A model generated the notes under the pieces. That model did no database searches. It was not told the origin of the DNA and was given only the letters and a program-made list of their open reading frames with translations. A program made the translations under genes and the position numbers. This document shows positions 332 to 64,000 of a stretch of 64,000 nucleotides of DNA, piece by piece (position 1 is the first letter of the stretch; each line of letters opens with the position of its first letter). The stretch is from the human T2T-CHM13v2.0 reference genome, Homo sapiens: the NCBI GenBank assembly GCA_009914755.4, contig CP086569.2, forward strand, positions 2,400,001 through 2,464,000, in the 5' to 3' direction.

Positions 332-885
332 GTAGGTGCACCTGGCTTCTGTCTTCTTGTCTCTCCCACGTGGTGTTGAGAAGGGGAAGCAGAATGTCTG
401 AGAGCTGGCGGACTGCACTGGCATTGGCCTCCTAAAGCTACTGGCAGGAGGCACGGGTGTTCTGTGCCAAGTGCTCCCAAGTGATGTAGCTGCAGAGGTC
501 CCCCAGCAAACCAGCCCTGCTCCGGGTGCCCACGTGACGCGGATTTTATGTTTGGTCACCTGCCCACGATGCCCTGGCTGGCGACCCGACCCCTACATCA
601 CGCTTCGCCTTGTCCTTGTGTTTACAAAAGCTCCTACACTCACCCTAACGATCAGAGGCTTGTGACGCAGTATCCTCGGTTGCGCTTGGCCCTTGAGAAC
701 GTCAGTAACCAGGTGGGAGGTGGGAATGTGGATCGCTTCCACCCTGGCTGTAACAGGCATTGTGTTCTCCATGGAAGTGCCGGTGATGTATCTCCTGTCT
801 CCTTTTTCATAACCTTTTCCCTTAGATGGGACAAGAAAATAATGACAGACAGAATTCCTTTTAAAACTGTAAAGAAAACAAAATG

Positions 886-1015
886 AGGTAAGAAAGAGAA
901 ACAGAGAAGTAGGGAGGAAGAAAAAAGGGAAGGAGGGAAGGAAAGAAGGAAGGAGGGATGGAGAGAAGGAAGGAAGGAGGGAAGAAGGGAAGGAAGGAAG
1001 GGAGGAAAAGTGGGT
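886..1015. repeat. (GGAA)n/(GA)-rich purine microsatellite
   Basis: Run of ggaagg/agggaagg repeats. Confidence 0.85.
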
Positions 1016-3226: not shown

Positions 3227-3340
3227 CCGACGCCCCAGGCGTGATCCCCGGGATTGTGGGGGCTGTCGTGGTCGCCGTGGCTGGAGCCATCTCTAGCTTC
3301 ATTGCTTACCAGAAAAAGAAGCTATGCTTCAAAGAAAATG
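3227..3340 (+). CDS. CD99: CD99 transmembrane exon encoding (A)DAPGVIPGIVGAVVVAVAGAISSFIAYQKKKLCFKEN; probably exon 8
   Basis: Acceptor cttcctcctgcag|cc and donor aatg|gtaagt. The translation matches the CD99 TM segment and KKKLCFKEN exactly. Confidence 0.95.
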
Positions 3341-8593: not shown

Positions 8594-8848
8594 TTATTCT
8601 ACCAGACAGGCTCATTTTCCGGGACTGTGTCATTGCATTGAAATCTGTGGTGTTTGTTAAATTTGTATTAAAATGAGTCCCAGGCGAGTGAGTAGACATA
8701 GGTGAGTCTTCGGCATCTTTCCAACAAGGAGATGCCTTTATCAAATCCTGTGACTTGATATAGATTTACTGAGAAGCTTTGCAGTGTTATATTTTGGGGT
8801 TCACGGATTAGAAACTCCTTGTGGAATCAGATGGCTCTGTCTGTTATA

Positions 8849-9055
8849 GGTTGGTGCAAAAATAACTGCGGTTTATGCCATTAAAAGTAATAGCAACATA
8901 GCAAGACCTCGTGTCTACAAAAAACGTAAAAAAAAAAAAATTAGCTGAGTGTGGTGGCTCCCAGCTAATTTTTTACCTTTTTTTGTAGAGACAGAGTCTT
9001 GCTATGTTGCCATTACTTTTAATGGCAAAAACCACAATTACTTTTGCACCAGCCT
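8849..9055. mobile_element. MADE1 (Hsmar1-derived 80-bp palindromic MITE) split at its centre by a ~120-bp Alu-derived insert (8893-9012)
   Basis: Left half ggttggtgcaaaaataactgcggtttatgccattaaaagtaat, right half cattacttttaatggcaaaaaccacaattacttttgcaccagcc. The intervening sequence holds Alu pieces (...attagctgagtgtggtggctc / ttgtagagacagagtcttgctatgttgcc). Confidence 0.75.
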
Positions 9056-9389
9056 CCGTTCCTCCCTTCCTACAGATTTGAGTTTGTGGTGCTTGGGCTT
9101 CTCCTGGTTTTTGTCCATGTGATACGAAGGGGCCTGTTGAAGCTGCTTCTCTCATGCACTCGGGGTCTGTGACTTCGCATCTGGGTGTGTTGGCTTCGCG
9201 GGGGACCTGGCTCAGACCACTAACCGCACGGAGCCTGACCACTTCCCACAGAGCCCAGCTTCCGTGGCTGGCAAGGGGTGTTCAGGATGCTGTCCTTTGG
9301 CTGTGGTGGCTGGTCCTACTGCTCTGTTTGCCAGGGTCCTGGGCTCACAGTGGGTTTCTTGAGGCTTTGGCAAGATGGGCGATTGGCTC

Positions 9390-10140
9390 TCCCTGTCTCC
9401 TTCTTTCTCTTTCTTCTTCTCTGCCTTTCTTCCTTCCCTCCTCCTTTCTTTCCCCCTCCCTCCTTCTTTTCTCTCTTCCTTCCCTGCTTTTCTCTTTCTT
9501 CCTTTGCCCTCAGTTCTCCCTCTCTCTCTCTCTTTTCATTCTTTCTTGAACTCTCCCTCTTTCTTCCTCCCTCCCTCCCTTCTTCTTTTCCTCCTTTTCC
9601 TTTTTCTCTCTTCCTTTTCTCTATCTCTTCCTTTCTTCCTTCTCTTTTCTTCTTATGTACCTCTTTCTTTTTTCTCTCTTCTTTCCTTCCTTCCTTTCTT
9701 TCCATCCCTCCCTCCTTCTTTCCTTTTCCCCTCTCCATCCCTTCCTCCTTTCCTTCCTTCCTTTCTTTTTTTCCTCTCTATTCTTTGTCTCTCTTCATCC
9801 ATCTCTCCTGTTCTTACATGCCTCTTTTCTTCCTTCCTTCTTTCTTCTCTCCCTCCTTCCCTTCTTTCCTTCCTTCCTTCCCTTCCTCCTTCCCTCTCTC
9901 CTTCCCTTCCTCCCTCCCTCCCTCATTTCCTTCCTCCCTGCTTCACTTCTTCCTCCCTCCCTTCCTCCATACCTCCCTGCTTCCTTTTTTCCAACCTCCT
10001 TCCCTCCTCGTTCCTTCCCTCTCTTTCTGCCTTCCTCCCTTCCTTCCTCCCATCCCTTCTTCCTGCTTCCCTCCTGCTCTCCCTGTTCCCTGCCTCCCTC
10101 CCTGCCTTCCTCTGTCTCTCCCTTCCTCCACTCCTTAATT
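9390..10140. repeat. Long polypyrimidine (TTCC)n/(TCCC)n/(CT)n tract of about 750 bp on the + strand
   Basis: Near-uninterrupted C/T composition, with ctccctcc, ttccttcc and tctctc motifs. It accounts for the spurious 279-286-aa + strand ORFs of S/L/F/P-rich protein. Confidence 0.9.
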
Positions 10141-10317
10141 TTGGTTTCCACTTCCCACTCTCACACTTTGAGCCTCTATCCCATTACTTCCTTGCTCAGA
10201 GCAGCTCTTTCTAACACCTCCCTGCTGCTGGGAGCCCCAGCGCACAGCAAAAGCAGACCCAGCACCAGTTTACTTTTTGTATTATTATTTTTTATCGTTT
10301 TCAACCTTCCATTTCAG

Positions 10318-10938: not shown

Positions 10939-11800
<862 letters not shown>

Positions 11801-12881
11801 TTTCTTATTTGCCCTCTTGTGGAAATGAGGCACAGCCTCCCTTATGGTTGAGCCGTAGTTCTAGCTGAGCACGGATGGTTTGATCCTCCTGTGTTGGGGC
11901 ACTGTATGGTGTGAGGGCACAAAACCTTGACCCACATGGGTCTGGTCACCTTCTCACAGAGGTCACCTTTACAGCCCCCCAACTCTTTGAAGGATGTGTC
12001 CCAAGGTGTCTCAAGTCTGATGCAATGAAAGCTGCCCCCCATTGACCACAGGACTGAGTCCAGAATGTCCTGCGTGTTTCCCAGAGTGTCTGTCCTAACA
12101 CCGCTTAAAGATTAGCCACTGCTAGACAGTGATCCTCAGGTATATGGTCTCAGGATTGGCCCCAAGCACACGGTGTGTGTGTGTGTATAAATATATCTTC
12201 ACAAAGCATAGGTACCCATTAAAGCCATATTGCTTTGCTGAATGGTTCTAATAGCTACAGATGATTTCTAGCCTGAAAGAAAAGCACCACGAATTGTTTG
12301 AAGTTGACTTGTCAGATGTGGCATGCTTGGTCTAAGTTTTGACAGGAAGGGTATGTGGGTAGGGGTGTACGGAGCATCTCATGAGACCAGTTCTCCTCCT
12401 GAGAGGTCCGTGATGTTGGAACTGTTGCCCCAGATGGACTTTGCCCTTGTGAGACTTTATACTTTTCAATGCAGTTTTTCCCTCTTTAAAACTCGCCAGC
12501 TTTTATGTAGTGTTTTATAAAATTACAGGAATAAAAAGAATATCTTTTATGCTTTTTAACCAATGAGGGGAGAGGGAGAAATTATTTGTCCTCTGAAATG
12601 AATGCAGGTTTTCAATTTCTAGCCAGGACAGTTTGCTGCAAAATGCACCCGTGTTGACAACTTGTGACTGGCAGAACAAATGACATTTGTGGTGAACATT
12701 TTCGGATCATTTCGAATGTTCTTCTCTTCAGGGGGTTTTCCTCTCTTTTTCTTAAATCAAAGAATTTGGCCCTTTATGTGGGAGTCATTTAGTGGTTAGG
12801 GAGAACAGTTGAAACTGTGGAGTTCACGTAGCGTAAACTGGCGAGGCTGTCTCTGCTGCTGTCATTAAAAGTTACGCTGCT

Positions 12882-15157: not shown

Positions 15158-15214
15158 CAGAACAAGGGGAGGTGGACATGGAGAGCCACCGGAATGCCAA
15201 CGCAGAGCCAGCTG
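15158..15214 (+). CDS. CD99: CD99 cytoplasmic-domain exon encoding (A)EQGEVDMESHRNANAEPA; probably exon 9
   Basis: Acceptor ttcttcttttcag|ca and donor gctg|gtaaga. Exact match to the CD99 sequence AEQGEVDMESHRNANAEPA in phase with the flanking exons. The tandem cag|cag acceptor (15155-15160) is a NAGNAG site. Confidence 0.95.
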
Positions 15215-17737: not shown

Positions 17738-17763
17738 TTCAGCGTACTCTTTTAGAGAAATAG
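17738..17763 (+). CDS. CD99: CD99 terminal coding segment (V)QRTLLEK-stop; coding part of the last exon
   Basis: Acceptor gtctctgtctcccacag|tt. g|tt cag cgt act ctt tta gag aaa tag gives VQRTLLEK*, the CD99 C-terminus. Confidence 0.95.
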
Positions 17764-18473: not shown

Positions 18474-18650
18474 GCACCCAGATACTCCCAGCCAGATACT
18501 CTCCTCCATCCAGATACTCTGTTTCCAGATACTCTCCCTGCAGCTAGTTATCCCCTTGAGTCCAGATGCTGCCTGCTTCCAGATACTCCTCTGTATCCAG
18601 ATACTCCTCTAAATCCAGGTACTCCCTACATCCAGATACTGTACTTCCTA
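18474..18650. repeat. Degenerate minisatellite of 12-14-bp period, (ccagatactcyyy)n, about 13 copies
   Basis: cccagatactcccagccagatactctcctccatccagatactctgtttccagatactctccc ... atccagatactgtacttcc. Lies 200 bp 3' of the CD99 poly-A site. Confidence 0.8.

Positions 18651-21447: not shown

Positions 21448-22075
<628 letters not shown>

Positions 22076-22394: not shown

Positions 22395-22447
<53 letters not shown>
22393..22447. repeat. (GT)n microsatellite of about 27 units
   Basis: tgtgtgtg... run. Confidence 0.95.
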
Positions 22448-26052: not shown

Positions 26053-26656
<604 letters not shown>

Positions 26657-29275: not shown

Positions 29276-29336
29276 ATGGAGAGCTGGTGGGGACTTCCCT
29301 GTCTTGCGTTCCTGTGTTTTCTAATGCACGCCCGAG
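29276..29336 (+). CDS. XG: XG (Xg blood group / PBDX) exon 1 coding part, signal peptide MESWWGLPCLAFLCFLMHAR(G). On the Y this is the first exon of the truncated XGY2/XGPY locus.
   Basis: ATG at 29276 in a reasonable Kozak context (aaaccATGg) and donor cga g|gtaagagg. The translation matches the XG N-terminus MESWWGLPCLAFLCFLMHARG. Confidence 0.9.
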
Positions 29337-30582
29337 GTAAGAGGCATTTTGCTTTGAGGGAGATCTGCCTGGGCATGGATTTTTCTATTCTTGCTTTAAG
29401 AAACTCTTTCCAAAGGAGTTGCTATGAAGTGAATGGGGATAATTTGCCCAATGGGATTAGAAAGGAGACTAAGAGCGATGGGTGGCTGAGAGGGGAGGGA
29501 GAAGACGGGCTGCTCCCATTTGGAATCTGGGAATTAGATCCAGAAGGGCAGTATGTTAGCTGATACCATCTAGATATTCGCCATATTTTCCTGTTTTGAT
29601 CCATGTGTCCCAAGCGTTTAAAAAATGACCTATTTAACTCCATGATTCAAGCATGACTGGGTGTGTGTGGAATGTCAGTCATTTCTTTCTGATTTTAAAA
29701 ATTAGTTCTGACCATTTCCATACAGTAAAAGTAGAGTTGAAACTACTTCATCCCGTGGGGCAGATTACCAGAGATTCGTTTGCCGGAAGGGTTGCATTTA
29801 TTCAGATTTTTAAATCTTTTCCTAAACACTGTCATTCATTCTTGCAAATTAAAACCACCTGAATTGTTCACATCAAAAACTTCGATATAAACTTGCAGGC
29901 TGGCTGTCCCAGATCCAAGATTAGATTTTTCAGTTCCGTACGAGGACCTCTTTAAGAAACTCCAATGAACTCATAAAGTACAGGATTTGAACAACGGTTG
30001 AGTAAGTTTCTTTGGTCATTTTCATGTGGCGATTTCAGAGAAGGGAACACCTGGGCGCATCTTAAGAGAGAGAAGTATTTCTGTTAGGAGTTAAAACACA
30101 TCATTCAGATGTCCCTGTGGCAGCATTTCCTGTTTATCCTATTTAAAGACATGGACGTCATTAAGATTGGAGTTGGTTGTTTATGGGCGGAGGCGGTGTC
30201 GGGATGGATAGATCCTGGTGGACATAGTCTAGGATCTGCAGTGAGAATTTTTTATTATTCTGTGCTGTCTTCAGATCTCACCTAGTAAGTGGACAATGTG
30301 GCCATGCATTCATTAGCTTCTGTTTACAGGGAGATGTTCAACAGTAAACCCACCTCCCCAGAAAAGTACTTCCAGGAGTTTGTATCATTCACAGTAAGAG
30401 CCAAAGGTTAACCATATCCCCTTGGGCAAATCAACTTCTACAAAGTGCGGATACAGACAGTTCCCAACTTACCATGGTTTGACATGATGGTTCAATTTAA
30501 GATTTTTCAACTTTACAACGGTGTAAAATTGGTATGCATTCAGTACAAACGAAAACTGTACTTTGAGTACCCATACAACTTT

Positions 30583-35811: not shown

Positions 35812-36090
35812 TCCTGTCTGTCTGTCTGCCTATCTCTAGATCTATCTATCGTCTACCATTATCCATCGACCTATCTGTCTCTATTATATACACCTATCAT
35901 CTACCTAATCTATCTGTCAATGATTTTCTGTCATCTATTATCTATCTATTTATCTATCTATCTTTCTACCTACTTCTCTATCCAACTCTCATCTCTATTA
36001 CCTATCTATGTATCTATGTATCTATCTATGTATCTATCCATCCATCTATCAATCTATCTATTTATCTAGCAGTCCATCATCTATCTATGA
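35812..36090. repeat. Degenerate compound tetranucleotide STR (TATC/TCTA/TCTG)n of about 280 bp
   Basis: tctgtctgtctgcctatctctagatctatctatcgtcta ... tctatctatttatctatctatctttcta ... tatctatgtatctatctatgtatctatccatccatctatcaatctatctatttatcta. Confidence 0.85.
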
Positions 36091-37394: not shown

Positions 37395-38935
<1,541 letters not shown>

Positions 38936-42060: not shown

Positions 42061-42405
42061 GGCTAGGCACGGCGGCTCATGCCTGTAATCTCCGCACTTT
42101 GGGAGGCCAAGGTGGGTGGATCACGAGGTCAGGAGTTTGAGACCAGGCTGGCCAACATGGTGAAACCCCATCTCTACTAAAAATAAAAAAAATTGGTTGG
42201 GCATAGTAGGGGGCGCCTGTAATCCCAGCTACTCAGGAGGCTGAGGCAGGCAGGAGAATCAATTGAACCTGGGGGGCAGAGGTTGCAGTGAACAGAGATT
42301 GCGCCATTGCACTGCAGCCTGGGCAACATAGTGAGGTTCTGTATGAGAGAAAGAGAGAAAGAGGGAGGGAGGGAAGGAAGGAAGGAAGGAAGGAAGGAAG
42401 GAAAC
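42061..42405 (+). mobile_element. Alu directly abutting the previous one, with the tail expanded into a (GA)n(GGAA)n microsatellite (42346-42405)
   Basis: ggctaggcacggcggctcatgcctgtaatctccgcactttgggaggccaaggtgggtggatcacgaggtcaggagtttgagaccaggctggcc ... gagagaaagagagaaagagggagggagggaaggaaggaaggaaggaaggaaggaaggaaa. Confidence 0.9.
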
Positions 42406-47536: not shown

Positions 47537-47578
47537 GTCAAAGAGACTTTGATTTGGCAGATGCCCTTGATGACCCTG
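47537..47578 (+). CDS. XG: XG exon 2 encoding (G)QRDFDLADALDDP
   Basis: Acceptor tgtttgctcccaatag|gt and donor cctg|gtaagtg. In phase with exon 1 (g|gt = Gly) and matches XG residues 21-34, GQRDFDLADALDDP. Confidence 0.9.
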
Positions 47579-47821: not shown

Positions 47822-48390
<569 letters not shown>

Positions 48391-49700: not shown

Positions 49701-50029
49701 CACATTAATTTTTTAAAAATCACATAAATAAACTTATTTTCCACTCACCTGCTACTACCTTTTCATTGCTCACCTAGAAGGCTGCCAGTGCCTGCAAACA
49801 CATCTTTGAATGCATCGTTTTGCTACCAAGAGCCCCCCATGAATGGGCAGGCATGTGCCTGTTCATCCACAGCCCTTCCTCATGGGAAGGAAGCCCCAGT
49901 GCAGAGGAACCACAGTCACCTGCATGGCGACTGTGGGGAATTCACTTTTCACTGTCTATACTGCCTGGGCTTTAAGAAACTCTGTGAGTGTATCACTATT
50001 TTAAAAAATAGTTATAATTTTACATTTTA

Positions 50030-50760
50030 AAAAGGAGACAGAGAAAGGAAGGATGGGAGAGAGGGAGGGAGGGTGGGAGGAGGAAGGAAGGGAAAAGGAA
50101 GAGAAGAAAGAAAAGAAGGAAACAATGAAAGGACAGAGGAAAACAGGGAGGGAGGGAGGAAAAAGGATGGAAACAAGGAGGGAAGAAAAGGAAGAAGAGA
50201 GGGAACGATGGAGGGAAGGAAGGAAGAAGAAAGGAGAGGAGATAAGAAAAGACTGAGGGGAGGAAGGAAGAAGGAGAGGAATGAAGGAGGAAGGGAAGAA
50301 AGGAGGGGGGAAGGAAAGAAAGAAAAATGGGAGAAGAAAGGAAGAAAGAAAAAGAATAAGGGAAGGACGGAGGGAAGGAAGGAGAGAGGGAGAGGAGAAA
50401 GGTTGGAGGGGAGGAAGGAAGAAAGGAGGGTGGGGAGGAAGGAAAGAAGAAGGGGGAAAAGGAGAGAGGGAAGGAAGGAAGGAAGGAGAGAAGGAAGGAA
50501 GGAGAGAAGGAAGGAAGGAGAGAAGGAAGGAAGGAGAGAAGGAAGGAAGGAGAGAAGGAAGGAAGGAGAGAAGGAAGGAAGGAGAGAAGGAAGGAAGGAG
50601 AGAAGGAAGGAAGGAGAGAAGGAAGGAAGGAGCGAAGGAAGGAAGGAGAGAAGGAAGGAAGGAGAGAAGGAAGGAAGGAGAGAAGGAAGGAAGGAAGAAG
50701 GGAGGGCAGGAAGGGAGAGGGAGGTGGCAGGAAGGAGAAAAGGTGATGAGAAACCTTCTA
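50030..50760. repeat. Long polypurine (GGAA)n/(GA)n tract of about 730 bp. It includes a higher-order array of about 14 copies of the 16-mer ggaaggaaggagagaa (50470-50700).
   Basis: Near-pure A/G composition on the + strand. It accounts for the 361-aa (+) and 285-aa (-) spurious ORFs. Confidence 0.9.
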
Positions 50761-51558
50761 TTAAAATACAGGACATGCGAAACCATATGCCCCGTTTGGA
50801 GGTTCAAGCTCTCCTTCTTGCAGTCTCTGCATCCCCAGTGAATGTCCGCACCACACACAAACCCGTGTTCCAGCCGCCTCCTACCAAGGCAATGCTAGGC
50901 TGTTATGTAAACCATGCTTTCAAATACGGTGTTTCCTCTGTTTGGAAGAAGTCTGGCCATTGCACAGCCCTGAAGCTCCAATTTTCCCAGCCATGGCCGA
51001 CTCCACCTCCTTTGAGCCATCTTCCTCAAACCTCCTCCTGCCCTCGTCTGCCCATCCACACTGCACACCCAGGTTCACTAAGCAGGGCAGTCACAGGCTG
51101 CACCCTGAGCACTCCTGACCTGATATCCACATCCATGCAATACATATTTGCTGAATGAATAAATGAATGAATGAAAGAAAGTGAGATAAGCCATCATTCT
51201 GGAAGCTGCAAGTCTTTCTCCTTCTTTTCTTTTGCCTCCCCCTGCCTCACCCTCCACCGTCCAGCCCTGTGGTGGCTCTACGGGCAGGTGGCTCACTTAC
51301 TTGTCTTGGATGTTCTCAGCTACTTTGGCCATCCTGTGGGCATCCTCACAGCCTCAAGGGTGGATTGTTTTTGAATGGATTTTAAGGGTGTTTTCTTGTC
51401 TTTTTTCTCAATTCAACATGGAATTTGTGTCTATATCATTTACTTTGTATGGCTTTGTCACTCCCTTTTCACCTTTCATCAGGGCGTTCATGGCCTTTCT
51501 TCATGCTTCCAATGAATCTTCAATGCATATTGCATTTATTTTCTCTCTTTGTTCACAG

Positions 51559-51582
51559 AACCCACCAAGAAGCCAAACTCAG
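51559..51582 (+). CDS. XG: XG exon 3 encoding (E)PTKKPNS
   Basis: Acceptor ttctctctttgttcacag|aa and donor tcag|gtgagtg. In phase (g|aa = Glu) and matches XG residues ...DDPEPTKKPNSD. Confidence 0.85.
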
Positions 51583-51659: not shown

Positions 51660-53757
<2,098 letters not shown>

Positions 53758-58310: not shown

Positions 58311-58634
<324 letters not shown>

Positions 58635-60983: not shown

Positions 60984-63710
60984 CTGTTCTAAGTATTTCT
61001 TATATACACTCACTTATTTAATGCTTGTGTACCTTAATTCATGTAGCCTTCACATCTCTTCATGGGTTGGTTTTATTAGTAAATAGCATTTCAACTAACA
61101 AAATTATTACAGAATTGAAAAAACTGAGACTCAGACAGCGAAGTAAATTGTTCAAGCTCAAGCCTGTAAGTGGCACTCAAGTGAGCCAAAGCTGAAGGGT
61201 TTACCTTCCAGAGCCTGTGTTCTTTATTCAGTACCAAGCTCCCTCTTAATGTATTTTAAGTGTTGGCATTTTAAAATATAGCAAACATCCATTGGCAGCC
61301 AAAGCACACTTGATACTTATAGTTAGAATTTGTTTGTTTATTGATGTTTGTTTAAACATCACAAAAATACAAAAATGCTTCATTTCAGTAATTCCTAAGT
61401 AAACCATACATAAAGTATCAATTCCTCTCCTGGGAGTGTGCTTCACAGAAATTCTTATAAATGTTCTCCATTGTACATGTATAAGAATGTATAAAAAAGC
61501 ACTGTTTGTAATAATTGAAACCAGTAAGTGTCCATTCATTTGTCCAACAAAAATAGAATGAAATACGCACAACAATTTTTTCTTAAAAATTCTAGTTTGG
61601 GCAGCATATACACTAAAATTAGAATGGTATGGAGAAGAATAACACTGTCCCTGGGCCAGGAGGGTATTCAAATGTGAAGTCTTTCATATTTTTGGGAGTA
61701 GAATTGTGGCTACCCTCTAGTAGGGTCAGGTGAAGAGATGAGTATTGTTATTCAAAAATTATAATATTTCATCTAGATAGAAGCAATTAGTTCAGATCTA
61801 TTGTAAAGCATGTTGAATATAGGTAATAAGAATGTATTGTATGCTTGAAAATTGCTAAGAGAATACAATTTAAATGTTCCCAGTGCAAAAGGAAAGGGAA
61901 GTATATGAGGTAGTAGATACATTAGCTTGATTTAGTCTTTCCAAAATGTATACATGCATGATGTCATAATTTTTAATAATCTGAAAACCACCAAAATGTA
62001 TTAAGCAAAAGAAGCTCCACATAATATTTTGTATTTATATTTATTCACATTGTTAAGGAAAAATGGTATTCAGTGATACTTGTTCAAACTTGATAAGGAA
62101 GACTATTCACGACCAACAGCACAGCAATGAGGTCTTGCACTGGGGGAGAGATTGGCCTTAGCTCCACATACACAGCTGGGTAGGTGGGGATTTATAGCCA
62201 AGGAGCAGGGAGTAGGGTCAATGGATGGACAATCACTAAGAGAAGACATCATAGATAAGGAGGATTCTTGCTGAAGACAGGCTAGGCTGATCAGACATCA
62301 CCTAGAGGGTGGTGGAGGATGAGAAACCTGATCAGATATTGAGGGTGATCGATCAAGTGTTGAGTGTGATCAGATATGCGGTGGGGGTACAGTCTGGCTA
62401 ACCTGGCTTAGGAGAGTTCTTTGCCAAAACTGAGTTTGGCAAGGAAGTGCACAGGCGAGTCTAGGAGAAGGTTCAGAAACCTGACTAAAGTTTGGTCAAA
62501 CAGAGAATCTGTGTCAGAGGTTCAAGAAAAGGAAAATTAATGTATGGTAATGAAGGTCAGAATGGGTGTTATTTTTGGGAGAGTGAAAAGAGTGGTTTTA
62601 AATATTACAAAGTAGTTTTGAGTCAGTGTTTAAAAGGTAATGGGCAATATACAGTTCTCATTTGGCATAAAGCTCAGATTAAGTAATATTGTCTCTGGAA
62701 TAAAGCTTTTTTTAAACCCTGAACTTTGAGAAACATGACATCCATCTCTAATATACACTCTTTTAGTGTTTGAGTTTTATTATTTAAGGTAATGTCTCTG
62801 AAAAGTTTTGAAATATTGGAAAGCTGACTTTGATACATACCATTAATTTTGACTTTTGATTTATTTTTATTGTAGAAAAATTTATTTGTAATTTATACTT
62901 TAAACTGTGGTTTACAGTTATTTGTAAACTTCTAGTTTCCTGCTTTAGCTTATGTGCAAATTTTATGAAGTCTTGGCATTACATTTTTATTTAAATCCCA
63001 TCAAATTAAACCAGTTGGGTCACCAGCCCCCGCCCTTCCATCTCCATAATCTGGGTAGTCGGCGTTCTCAACATTCCTGTTGAGAATGAAAATTCTGTAT
63101 TTTTCATTCCACAGGCTTAAAAGTTAATAGGCCATGGAAACAAGTAGATTGCCATTTTAAAAGATAGTTTTCAGAAGAAAGGCAAAATGATAAGTTTCAT
63201 AGAGATACAAAAATGACAAGGAATTAAATATTTTGTTTTACCAGAGGCATTTTATAACTAGTTGAAAGGAAATGTCAACCGTTTGGATTTATATGGAGTA
63301 AAGGAACTGAATTGCAAGTGGAGGTAAAACTGGTTTTTTCCACAGCGTGAAGGGGAGAGAAAGAAACAAGTTTGATCCTGCTTACATATCCATTCCTTAG
63401 TTACCTGCAATTTATAGACACGTACAAAGTAGCTGAAAGACCAATGAATACACGGTCTAGAGAGGACTGCTTAACACGCTGCATATAGAAGTGTGATTTT
63501 TTTTGGTACAATTTTCAAGTGTGTTTCTCATTAGAGCATTTAAAGTAAGCCACAGTGTCCGTTTGTATCAAGTTAGTACTCTGACGGCCACAAACATAGG
63601 CAGGCTCACTTCTGGATGTCTTATTTCTTTGCATGTTAATCGTGTTGACACAACTTGTCTTGAAATTAAGTTTAAAATGAAATACCAGTAAAACTGAAAT
63701 GAATAAGGCC

Positions 63711-63828: not shown

Positions 63829-64000
63829 CTACAGCTTTGTCCAGTGGCTGTAGCGGTCCCGTTGCTGCGGTGAGCTGGCTGCGTTGATGGGCGGTAAGTG
63901 GCCTAGCTGGTGCTCCATTCTTGAGTGTGTGGCTTTCGTACAGTCATCCCTGTACAACCTGTTGTCCAGTTGCACTTCGCTGCAGAGTACCGAAGCGGGA
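63829..64000 (-). CDS. SRY: SRY (sex-determining region Y), 3' portion of the single-exon CDS: C-terminal 57 codons plus stop. The HMG box and N-terminus lie beyond the window end.
   Basis: The reverse complement of 63829-63999 translates to PASVLCSEVQLDNRLYRDDCTKATHSRMEHQLGHLPPINAASSPQQRDRYSHWTKL*, an exact match to the human SRY C-terminus. The stop codon tag is cta on the + strand at 63829-63831. Confidence 0.93.
   Translation of the reverse strand, partial: PASVLCSEVQLDNRLYRDDCTKATHSRMEHQLGHLPPINAASSPQQRDRYSHWTKL

What the first reader, a model, noticed from the sequence alone, without database searches (positions are those of the whole stretch)
9390..10140. Three very long mirror-type polypurine/polypyrimidine tracts in the window
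9390-10140 (about 750 bp, pyrimidine on +), 26085-26345 (about 260 bp, pyrimidine on +, grown from an Alu tail) and 50030-50760 (about 730 bp, purine on +) are near-perfect homopurine-homopyrimidine runs of (GGAA/TTCC)n type. Tracts of this length and purity can adopt H-DNA/triplex structures, stall polymerases and act as recombination or fragility hotspots. Their density is notable in PAR1, which sustains an obligatory crossover in every male meiosis. They also explain all of the longest ORFs in the six-frame track.
Basis: partly seen in the sequence, partly recalled or inferred. Interest (0 to 1): 0.5.

Follow-up and report, generated by a model that had tools for sequence, protein, structure and literature searches.

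The report
Long purine/pyrimidine tracts near PAR1 boundary
Three long stretches with only purines on one DNA strand are really present in the last 58 kb of the human sex-chromosome pairing region, but they are ordinary expanded and decayed GGAA-type simple repeats of a kind already known to be enriched there.

Summary
The three tracts are real and far beyond chance: 9387-10162 (776 bp, 94% pyrimidine), 26084-26343 (260 bp, 98.5%) and 50029-50753 (725 bp, 96% purine). The longest pure runs are 104, 153 and 201 bp, against at most 28 bp in shuffles. The window is human Yp. It holds the last three CD99 coding exons, XG exons 1-3, the PAR1 LTR6B, the boundary Alu at 58321-58625 and the SRY 3' end, so all three tracts lie in the last 49 kb of PAR1. 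"Mirror-type" is only partly true: published H-DNA criteria are met by 502 bp in nine blocks, chiefly tract 2 and a 13-copy 16-mer array in tract 3. Most of tract 1 and the left 440 bp of tract 3 show no mirror symmetry above chance. Tract 2 does sit on an Alu tail; tracts 1 and 3 do not. The long ORFs are stop-codon-free artefacts. No PRDM9 13-mer lies in any tract. Length polymorphism and hotspot activity could not be tested, and published maps of this interval disagree. Enrichment of long purine/pyrimidine tracts in the pseudoautosomal region was reported in 2006. Verdict: a real, ordinary, already known kind of feature.

The parts
9387..10162 (-). Tract 1. A 776-bp degenerate polypyrimidine tract on + (purine strand is -). 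It lies in the 11.8-kb CD99 intron between coding exons 3227-3340 and 15158-15214. It has 48 interruptions and its longest pure run is 9821-9924 (104 bp). Only three short perfect H-DNA-type blocks are present (9624-9645, 9679-9700, 9885-9913), plus one imperfect mirror at 9871-9939.
   Evidence: no adjacent Alu
26084..26343 (-). Tract 2. A 260-bp tract, 98.5% pyrimidine on +, in the CD99-XG intergenic region. On + it reads (CCCT)6 ... (CCTT)9 ... (CTTT)4 ... (CT)6. It becomes more A-rich on the purine strand toward the adjoining Alu. Four H-DNA-type blocks are present: 26100-26143, 26195-26258, 26271-26305 and 26314-26340.
26359..26625 (-). Old Alu (84% identical to an AluY consensus written from memory) whose 3' A-tail end abuts tract 2. 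A candidate degenerate target-site duplication is AGCAAACAGGGTGGATT (left of the tract) versus AGCAGGGCTGATTT (right of the Alu).
50029..50753 (+). Tract 3. A 725-bp tract, 96.3% purine on +, in XG intron 2, about 7.6 kb distal to the boundary Alu. The left 440 bp are degenerate with no mirror symmetry above chance.
50485..50692 (+). Core of tract 3: 13 head-to-tail copies of GGAGAGAAGGAAGGAA. Twelve are identical and one has a single A>C change, so this is a young minisatellite-like array. It forms the one large H-DNA-type block (50472-50698) and holds the 201-bp pure purine run.
871..1010 (+). No adjacent Alu.
42345..42404 (+). Additional 60-bp pure purine tract, (GA)n(GGGA)3(GGAA)8, directly on the tail of the plus-strand Alu at 42066-42335. 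It is a second Alu-tail microsatellite of the same kind as tract 2.

Best explanation
The tracts are non-coding low-complexity DNA: purine-rich microsatellites of the GAAA, GGAA, GGGA and GA series. They grew by replication slippage and unequal exchange and then decayed by point substitution.

Tract 2 (and the small tract at 42345-42404) was seeded by an Alu poly(A) tail. Tracts 1 and 3 arose independently from unidentified A/G-rich seeds.

The tracts are at three stages. Tract 1 is old and eroded. Tract 2 is intermediate. Tract 3 is an eroded tract within which a 16-bp higher-order unit has recently amplified to 13 copies.

They lie in a CD99 intron, in the CD99-XG spacer and in XG intron 2, within the last 49 kb of human PAR1. 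This region is already documented as unusually rich in such tracts.

Shown here: their existence, composition, internal structure, genomic position, the Alu-tail link for tract 2, and which blocks meet the H-DNA motif definition.

Inferred: that only those blocks (about 500 bp in total) can fold into intramolecular triplexes under negative supercoiling and pause polymerases; that the pure blocks (26195-26258, 42372-42403, 50485-50692) vary in length between haplotypes; and that the tracts are mutational by-products rather than selected elements.
For: - Composition and run lengths are far beyond chance.
- Tandem structure with periods 4, 8, 12 and 16. The 13 x 16-mer array has 12 identical copies.
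- Graded interruption density of 6.2, 3.7 and 1.5 per 100 bp in tracts 1, 3 and 2.
- Tract 2 and the 42345 tract abut Alu 3' ends in the correct orientation, and tract 2 becomes more A-rich toward the Alu.
- The flanks of tracts 1 and 3 share no homology, and the tracts share only 18-32-bp words, so their origins are independent.
- Clusters of H-palindromes in the pseudoautosomal region are reported (PMC4538819 citing Bacolla 2006).
- By the published criteria the window has 9 H-DNA loci in 64 kb, against about 1 per 25 kb genome-wide.
- The ORFs over the tracts are low-complexity, and those looked up (four of the ten queried ORFs overlie tracts 2 and 3) are absent from the protein collection.
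Against: - The seeds of tracts 1 and 3 were not identified, because no interspersed-repeat library was available.
- The target-site duplication for the tract 2 Alu is degenerate.
- Nothing here shows that a triplex forms in vivo or that lengths vary.
- A selected role (recombination, chromatin, splicing) cannot be excluded from sequence alone.
- The comparison with the genome-wide H-DNA density uses my merged-locus count, which may not be counted the same way as in the paper.
Confidence: 0.85

Rival explanations
1. The tracts are functional recombination or DSB hotspots. H-DNA or other non-B structures at the tracts would promote breaks that help secure the obligatory X-Y crossover in PAR1.
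For: - Sub-blocks meet the H-DNA motif criteria.
- H-DNA stalls polymerases and causes instability (PMC11667243 abstract).
- Polypurine/polypyrimidine tracts have been examined for association with recombination hot spots (PMC1543642).
- Sperm typing puts 0.77 cM in the last 19.6 kb of PAR1, which contains tract 3, and a hotspot is reported within XG (PMC11568759).
- The male rate rises somewhat near the boundary (PMC4102438).
Against: - No map read here resolves single tracts.
- Another map gives 0.0007 cM for the last 66 kb, and an LD study reports low recombination at the start of XG.
- Human PAR1 hotspots are positioned by PRDM9, and the tracts hold none of its 13-mers: 0 observed against 3.5 +/- 1.7 in within-tract shuffles.
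- About 70% of the tract bases lack mirror symmetry.
Confidence: 0.1
2. The GGAA runs act as ETS-type binding arrays. In Ewing sarcoma, EWSR1-FLI1 would convert them into neo-enhancers for the neighbouring CD99 and XG genes.
For: - Runs of at least 4 consecutive GGAA exist: 9 and 5 copies in tract 2, 8 at 42372-42403, and 4 in each of tracts 1 and 3.
- EWSR1-FLI1 is known to turn GGAA microsatellites into enhancers (PMC5788584).
- CD99 is highly expressed in Ewing sarcoma.
Against: - None of the papers read links CD99 or XG to a GGAA microsatellite.
- CD99 is broadly expressed in normal tissues and in other sarcomas.
- The runs are short compared with the 18-26 repeats I recall as optimal (from memory, not checked).
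- Tracts 1 and 3 are mostly not consecutive GGAA.
Confidence: 0.05
3. The tracts act at the RNA or transcription level. Tract 1 gives a 776-nt CU-rich stretch in CD99 pre-mRNA. Tract 3 gives a GA-rich stretch in XG pre-mRNA with the purine strand as non-template, the same orientation as the FXN (GAA)n repeat. This orientation would favour R-loops or triplexes that slow elongation, or the recruitment of splicing factors.
For: - Both genes are on the + strand, so the orientation follows directly from the sequence.
- H-DNA analogues block transcription in vitro (PMC4538819).
- Long intronic GAA-TTC repeats silence a reporter (PMC2577344 title).
Against: - The tracts are thousands of bases from the neighbouring exons: tract 1 about 5 kb and tract 3 about 0.8 kb from exon 3.
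- No expression data were available.
- The pure block is only about 200 bp, well below pathogenic GAA lengths (from memory).
Confidence: 0.05
4. The long ORFs over the tracts encode low-complexity proteins.
For: ORFs of 249-361 aa overlie tracts 1 and 3.
Against: - A pure purine or pure pyrimidine strand cannot contain TAA, TAG or TGA, so all six frames stay open by composition alone.
- ORFs occur on both strands and in several frames over the same bases.
- The translations are SFLPS/EGRKE-type repeats.
- The two tract-spanning ORFs looked up for tract 2 and the one for tract 3 are absent from the 15-billion-protein collection.
- The tracts lie in introns and a spacer between mapped CD99 and XG exons.
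Confidence: 0.01

Closest known systems
Long homopurine-homopyrimidine tracts of the human pseudoautosomal region (Bacolla et al. 2006, NAR 34:2663)
   Same: Same chromosome region (PAR1), same sequence class, and lengths of 250 bp or more. Clusters of H-palindromes are described there (as cited in PMC4538819).
   Different: The paper itself could not be read here, so its purity and length thresholds were not applied, and I do not know whether these three tracts are in its list.
H-DNA motifs as defined by non-B gfa / non-B DB (arm >=10, spacer <8, >=90% R or Y, AT <80%)
   Same: Nine blocks totalling 502 bp meet every sequence criterion. Like the largest genomic H-motifs, they overlap microsatellites (PMC11879447).
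   Different: The tracts as wholes are not mirror repeats. Tract 1 and the left 440 bp of tract 3 are eroded polypurine DNA without symmetry. The 16-mer unit is not itself mirror-symmetric, so perfect arms stay at 15 nt or less.
Alu poly(A)-tail-derived (GAAA)n/(GGAA)n microsatellites
   Same: Tract 2 and 42345-42404 sit on Alu 3' ends in the right orientation, and tract 2 is more A-rich next to the Alu.
   Different: Tracts 1, 3 and 871-1010 have no adjacent Alu. At 260 bp, tract 2 is much longer than a typical Alu tail repeat.
PKD1 intron 21 polypyrimidine tract and the FXN intron 1 (GAA)n repeat
   Same: These are intronic R.Y tracts that can form triplexes and impede polymerases. Tract 3 has the FXN-like orientation, with purines on the non-template strand.
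   Different: Those tracts are longer or purer, and their effects have been shown experimentally. Nothing comparable is known for the tracts here. The comparison rests on my own knowledge.

Membership tests
H-DNA (intramolecular triplex) motif | >=90% purine or pyrimidine on one strand | tested here: met
   93.8%, 98.5% and 96.3% for tracts 1-3
H-DNA (intramolecular triplex) motif | Mirror symmetry with arms >=10 nt, spacer <8 nt and AT <80% | tested here: inconclusive
   Met by 9 blocks (502 bp), mostly in tract 2 and at 50472-50698. Not met by about 70% of the tract bases. Tract 1 coverage is not above dinucleotide shuffles.
H-DNA (intramolecular triplex) motif | Triplex actually forms under supercoiling (S1 or chemical probing) | not testable with these tools
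   No tool here models triplexes or gives access to footprinting data.
Long R.Y tracts of the pseudoautosomal region (Bacolla 2006) | Located in the pseudoautosomal region | tested here: met
   CD99 exons; XG exons 1-3, with 'first three exons of XG fall within PAR1' from PMC6193736; exact PAR1 primer match at 53722-53741; 305-bp boundary Alu at 58321-58625 compared with the published 303-bp Alu.
Long R.Y tracts of the pseudoautosomal region (Bacolla 2006) | Length and purity thresholds used by that study | not tested
   The paper is not held. All three tracts are at least 260 bp.
Alu-tail-derived microsatellite | Directly abuts the 3' end of an Alu with the purine strand continuing the A-tail | tested here: met
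   Met for tract 2 (Alu - at 26359-26625) and for 42345-42404 (Alu + at 42066-42335). Not met for tracts 1, 3 and 871-1010.
Alu-tail-derived microsatellite | Target-site duplication enclosing the Alu plus the tract | tested here: inconclusive
   Only a degenerate candidate of about 14-17 bp was found for tract 2.
PRDM9-motif cluster hotspot (as in Hinch et al. 2014 PAR1 peaks) | One or more copies of CCNCCNTNNCCNC | tested here: not met
   There are 8 matches in the window and none lies in any tract; 7 are in Alus. Zero observed against 3.5 expected from within-tract shuffles.
EWSR1-FLI1-responsive GGAA microsatellite | At least 4 consecutive GGAA repeats | tested here: met
   9 and 5 copies (tract 2), 8 copies (42372-42403), and 4 copies each in tracts 1 and 3.
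EWSR1-FLI1-responsive GGAA microsatellite | Fusion-protein binding and enhancer activity | not testable with these tools
   No ChIP data were available, and no paper found links CD99 or XG to such a repeat.
Minisatellite / VNTR | Head-to-tail array of a unit of 10 bp or more | tested here: met
   13 x 16 bp at 50485-50692, with 12 identical copies.
Minisatellite / VNTR | Copy-number variation between haplotypes | not testable with these tools
   No second human haplotype could be retrieved.
Protein-coding gene | ORF with homologues or non-trivial composition | tested here: not met
   Overlapping ORFs occur in several frames and on both strands. They are low-complexity and absent from the collection.

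The most novel reading that the evidence does not exclude
The young, pure 13 x 16-mer purine array in XG intron 2 (50485-50692) would be an unstable, break-prone site. It lies 2.2 kb distal to the PAR1 LTR6B (52946-53504) and 7.6 kb distal to the pseudoautosomal boundary. Under this reading it contributes to the crossover activity reported within XG and to the recurrent LTR6B-mediated X-Y non-allelic exchange that creates the extended PAR. Its length would then be a haplotype-specific modifier of recombination at the very edge of PAR1.
Probability: 0.05. Interest if true: 0.55.

Novelty: already known. Interest (0 to 1): 0.15.

Why it matters
If the tracts did influence recombination, they would bear on how the obligatory X-Y crossover is secured and on rearrangements next to SRY. 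As it stands, the value is practical. These are the places in the CD99-XG interval where sequencing, PCR and short-read assembly are most likely to fail. They are also candidate length-polymorphic markers within 50 kb of the pseudoautosomal boundary, and the long ORFs over them must not be annotated as genes.

Tried and rejected
1. Other human haplotypes for a length comparison. Ten ORFs flanking or spanning tracts 2 and 3 were looked up by exact sequence and none is in the protein collection. Unique 26- and 27-mers flanking tracts 2 and 3 were scanned in metagenome and bacterial-genome contigs in case of human contamination, with 0 hits in all four scans.
2. Reading Bacolla et al. 2006 directly: not held by DOI or PMC id.
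It was replaced by tblastn with protein sequences recalled from memory. Those matches were then checked with Pfam and the protein database for CD99.
4. PRDM9 13-mer clusters as the link to recombination: none lies in the tracts.
5. Tracts 1 and 3 as arms of an inverted duplication: their flanks are unrelated.
6. SVA 5' hexamer origin for tract 1: rejected by inspection of the sequence, which shows no (CCCTCT)n and no Alu-like region following.
7. A literature link between CD99/XG and GGAA-microsatellite enhancers: none found.
8. Literature confirmation of the SRY C-terminal peptide by text search: no hit.
9. Rfam scan: only two Alu/7SL-like matches and a U6 pseudogene, nothing at the tracts.

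Full report
**Observation**

Reading the three stretches and scoring them confirms long homopurine-homopyrimidine tracts at essentially the stated coordinates.

| Tract | Coordinates | Length | Purity | Longest pure run |
|---|---|---|---|---|
| 1 | 9387-10162 | 776 bp | 93.8% pyrimidine on + | 104 bp |
| 2 | 26084-26343 | 260 bp | 98.5% pyrimidine on + | 153 bp |
| 3 | 50029-50753 | 725 bp | 96.3% purine on + | 201 bp |

In 30 dinucleotide-preserving shuffles of the window the longest pure run averaged 19.8 bp and never exceeded 28 bp, and no H-DNA-type motif appeared at all. The tracts are therefore real and far beyond chance.

Together the five tracts make up 3.1% of the window.

**Internal anatomy**

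Tandem Repeats Finder reports overlapping periods of 4, 8, 12, 16, 20 and 24 at low match percentages for tract 1. Tract 2 shows a cleaner period 4, and tract 3 a strong period 16.

Interruption density is 6.2 per 100 bp in tract 1, 3.7 in tract 3 and 1.5 in tract 2.

- Tract 1 never has more than four consecutive copies of any tetramer unit (its longest run of any tested unit is (GA)7). It is an eroded mixture.
- Tract 2 reads on the + strand as (CCCT)6, (CCTT)9, (CTTT)4, (CT)6.
- Tract 3 has a degenerate left 440 bp followed by 13 head-to-tail copies of GGAGAGAAGGAAGGAA at 50485-50692. Twelve copies are identical and one carries a single A>C change, which is the signature of a recent amplification.

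**'Mirror-type'**

Perfect mirror repeats (arms >=10, spacer <=8) cover 9% of tract 1. This is not above within-tract dinucleotide shuffles: 73 bp observed against a mean of 32, SD 26 and maximum 99. They cover 65% of tract 2 and 32% of tract 3, the latter entirely in the 230-bp array block.

Allowing mismatches adds only one modest imperfect mirror in tract 1 (9871-9939, 34-nt arms with 5 mismatches). It adds nothing above chance in the left 440 bp of tract 3.

I then applied the published H-DNA definition: arm >=10, spacer <8, >=90% AG or CT, AT <80% (PMC11879447). The window has nine merged loci totalling 502 bp: three small ones in tract 1, four in tract 2, one at 42372-42403 and one of 227 bp in tract 3. 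That is about one per 7 kb, against the published genome mean of about one per 25 kb, with the caveat that my merged count may not match the paper's counting.

So the triplex argument applies to roughly 30% of the tract bases, not to the tracts as wholes.

**ORFs**

The six longest ORFs in the window (361, 286, 285, 279, 249 and 249 aa) lie on tracts 1 and 3, in several frames and on both strands. The seventh (246 aa, 10984-11724) lies on a separate T-rich stretch, and tract 2 yields only 120 aa.

This follows from composition, because all three stop codons need both T and a purine. The translations are SFLPS- or EGRKE-type repeats, and the tract-spanning ORFs looked up for tracts 2 and 3 are absent from the protein collection.

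**Where the window is**

- *Repeats.* A BLAST against an Alu consensus written from memory finds about 55 Alus covering 22.6% of the window, so this is primate DNA.
- *CD99.* tblastn with a recalled human CD99 sequence hit three exons with canonical splice sites: 3227-3340, 15158-15214 and 17738-17763 including the stop. The assembled 64-aa C-terminus matches Pfam PF12301 (CD99L2) at E = 8e-14, and database homologues are named CD99 antigen.
- *XG.* A recalled XG sequence places XG exon 1 at about 29276, exon 2 at about 47539-47577 and exon 3 at 51558-51581. The first three XG exons are known to lie in PAR1 (PMC6193736).
- *LTR6B.* The published primer ePARjunc-R, which anneals beside the PAR1-specific LTR6B about 5 kb from the boundary, matches exactly at 53722-53741. 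A 558-bp TG...CA element at 52946-53504 splitting an Alu fits that LTR.
- *Boundary Alu.* An AluY-like element with its tail spans 58321-58625 (305 bp) with an AAGTTAA-type target duplication. This matches the 303-bp Y-specific Alu that marks the boundary (PMC11568759).
- *SRY.* The last 168 bases of the window encode, on the minus strand, 56 residues identical to the C-terminus of human SRY as I recall it (E = 1e-34).

The window is therefore human Yp: the last 58.3 kb of PAR1 plus 5.4 kb of Y-specific DNA. Tract 1 lies in an 11.8-kb CD99 intron, about 48 kb distal to the boundary. Tract 2 lies in the CD99-XG spacer, about 32 kb distal. Tract 3 lies in XG intron 2, about 7.6 kb distal.

**Origin**

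Tract 2 abuts the 3' end of a minus-strand Alu (26359-26625), with its purine strand continuing the A-tail and growing G-richer away from the Alu. A degenerate candidate target-site duplication encloses the Alu plus the tract. The 42345 tract sits in the same way on a plus-strand Alu.

Tracts 1, 3 and 871-1010 have no adjacent Alu. The flanks of tracts 1 and 3 are unrelated to each other, and the tracts share only 18-32-bp words, so they arose independently. Their seeds could not be identified without an interspersed-repeat library.

**Link to recombination**

Human PAR1 hotspots are positioned by PRDM9 through CCNCCNTNNCCNC, and many PAR1 PRDM9 peaks are low-complexity tandem repeats carrying multiple copies of the motif (PMC4102438). 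I tested whether the C/T-rich tracts are such clusters, and they are not. The window has eight matches, seven of them in Alus, and none lies in a tract. Within-tract shuffles give 3.5 +/- 1.7 matches, and only 1% of shuffles give zero. This is probably a consequence of the 4-bp periodicity.

Published maps for this interval disagree:
- Sperm typing puts 0.77 cM in the last 19.6 kb, and a hotspot is reported within XG (PMC11568759).
- The male rate rises somewhat near the boundary.
- Another map gives 0.0007 cM for the last 66 kb.
- An LD study reports low recombination at the start of XG (PMC8084340).

None of these resolves individual tracts, so the hotspot idea remains untested.

**Length variation**

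**Comparison with what is known**

Enrichment of long homopurine-homopyrimidine tracts in the pseudoautosomal region is the subject of Bacolla et al. 2006. [quoted passage not shown]

That H-DNA stalls polymerases and promotes instability is review-level knowledge (PMC11667243).

A separate reading, that the GGAA runs could serve as EWSR1-FLI1 neo-enhancers for CD99 or XG in Ewing sarcoma, is compatible with run lengths of 8-9 copies. It has no support in the literature I could search.

**Verdict**

This is a correct sighting of an ordinary, already described class of sequence.

Noticed in passing
window 58321-58625 and 63832-63999: The window crosses the PAR1 boundary on the Y chromosome. An AluY-like element of 305 bp including its tail, with an AAGTTAA-type target duplication, fits the published 303-bp Y-specific boundary Alu. 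The last 168 bases of the window encode, on the minus strand, 56 residues identical to the C-terminus of human SRY as recalled from memory (E = 1e-34).
   Followed up: partly
window 52946-53504 and 53722-53741: A 558-bp TG...CA element splits an Alu (halves at 52845-52945 and 53504-53688). It lies 218 bp from an exact match to the published ePARjunc-R primer. This is most likely the PAR1 LTR6B that mediates the X-Y non-allelic exchange creating the extended PAR. It is 2.2 kb proximal to tract 3.
   Followed up: partly
window 3227-3340, 15158-15214, 17738-17763; about 29276-29338, 47539-47577, 51558-51581: The last three coding exons of CD99 (with canonical splice sites and the stop codon) and the first three coding exons of XG, all on the + strand.
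   Followed up: yes
tracts 9387-10162, 26084-26343, 50029-50753: The PRDM9 13-mer CCNCCNTNNCCNC is absent from about 1.76 kb of C/T-only sequence, where within-tract shuffles give 3.5 +/- 1.7 copies (1% of shuffles give none). This is probably an effect of the 4-bp periodicity, but motif erosion was not excluded.
   Followed up: partly
window 38227-38896: A tandem repeat of a 238-bp unit, 2.9 copies at 85% match, in XG intron 1. It lies about 19.5-20 kb distal to the boundary Alu, close to where the marker DXYS77 is said to sit (19.6 kb from the boundary). Whether it is that marker was not checked.
   Followed up: no
window 11140-11285 and 11566-11818: Two T-rich (about 90% pyrimidine) minisatellite-like stretches with periods of 47-69 bp flank a minus-strand Alu (11291-11567). 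They look like one array split by the Alu insertion, and they carry the 246-aa ORF at 10984-11724.
   Followed up: no
window 35933-36088, 22396-22446, 21448-21669, 48139-48303, 18492-18640: Other tandem repeats in the window: (ATCT)39 at 71% match, a perfect (TG)25, a 60-bp unit x3.6, an 81-bp unit x2.0 at 98% match, and an 18-bp unit x8.5 just downstream of the CD99 stop codon.
   Followed up: no
window 61589-61693: A full-length match to U6 snRNA on the + strand (Rfam RF00026, 54 bits, E = 8e-11) in the Y-specific segment between the boundary and SRY. It is presumably a U6 pseudogene.
   Followed up: no
window 8848-9055: A stretch of about 210 bp just upstream of tract 1 matches its own reverse complement at 77.6% identity. 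It is an imperfect palindrome, possibly a small DNA-transposon relic.
   Followed up: no
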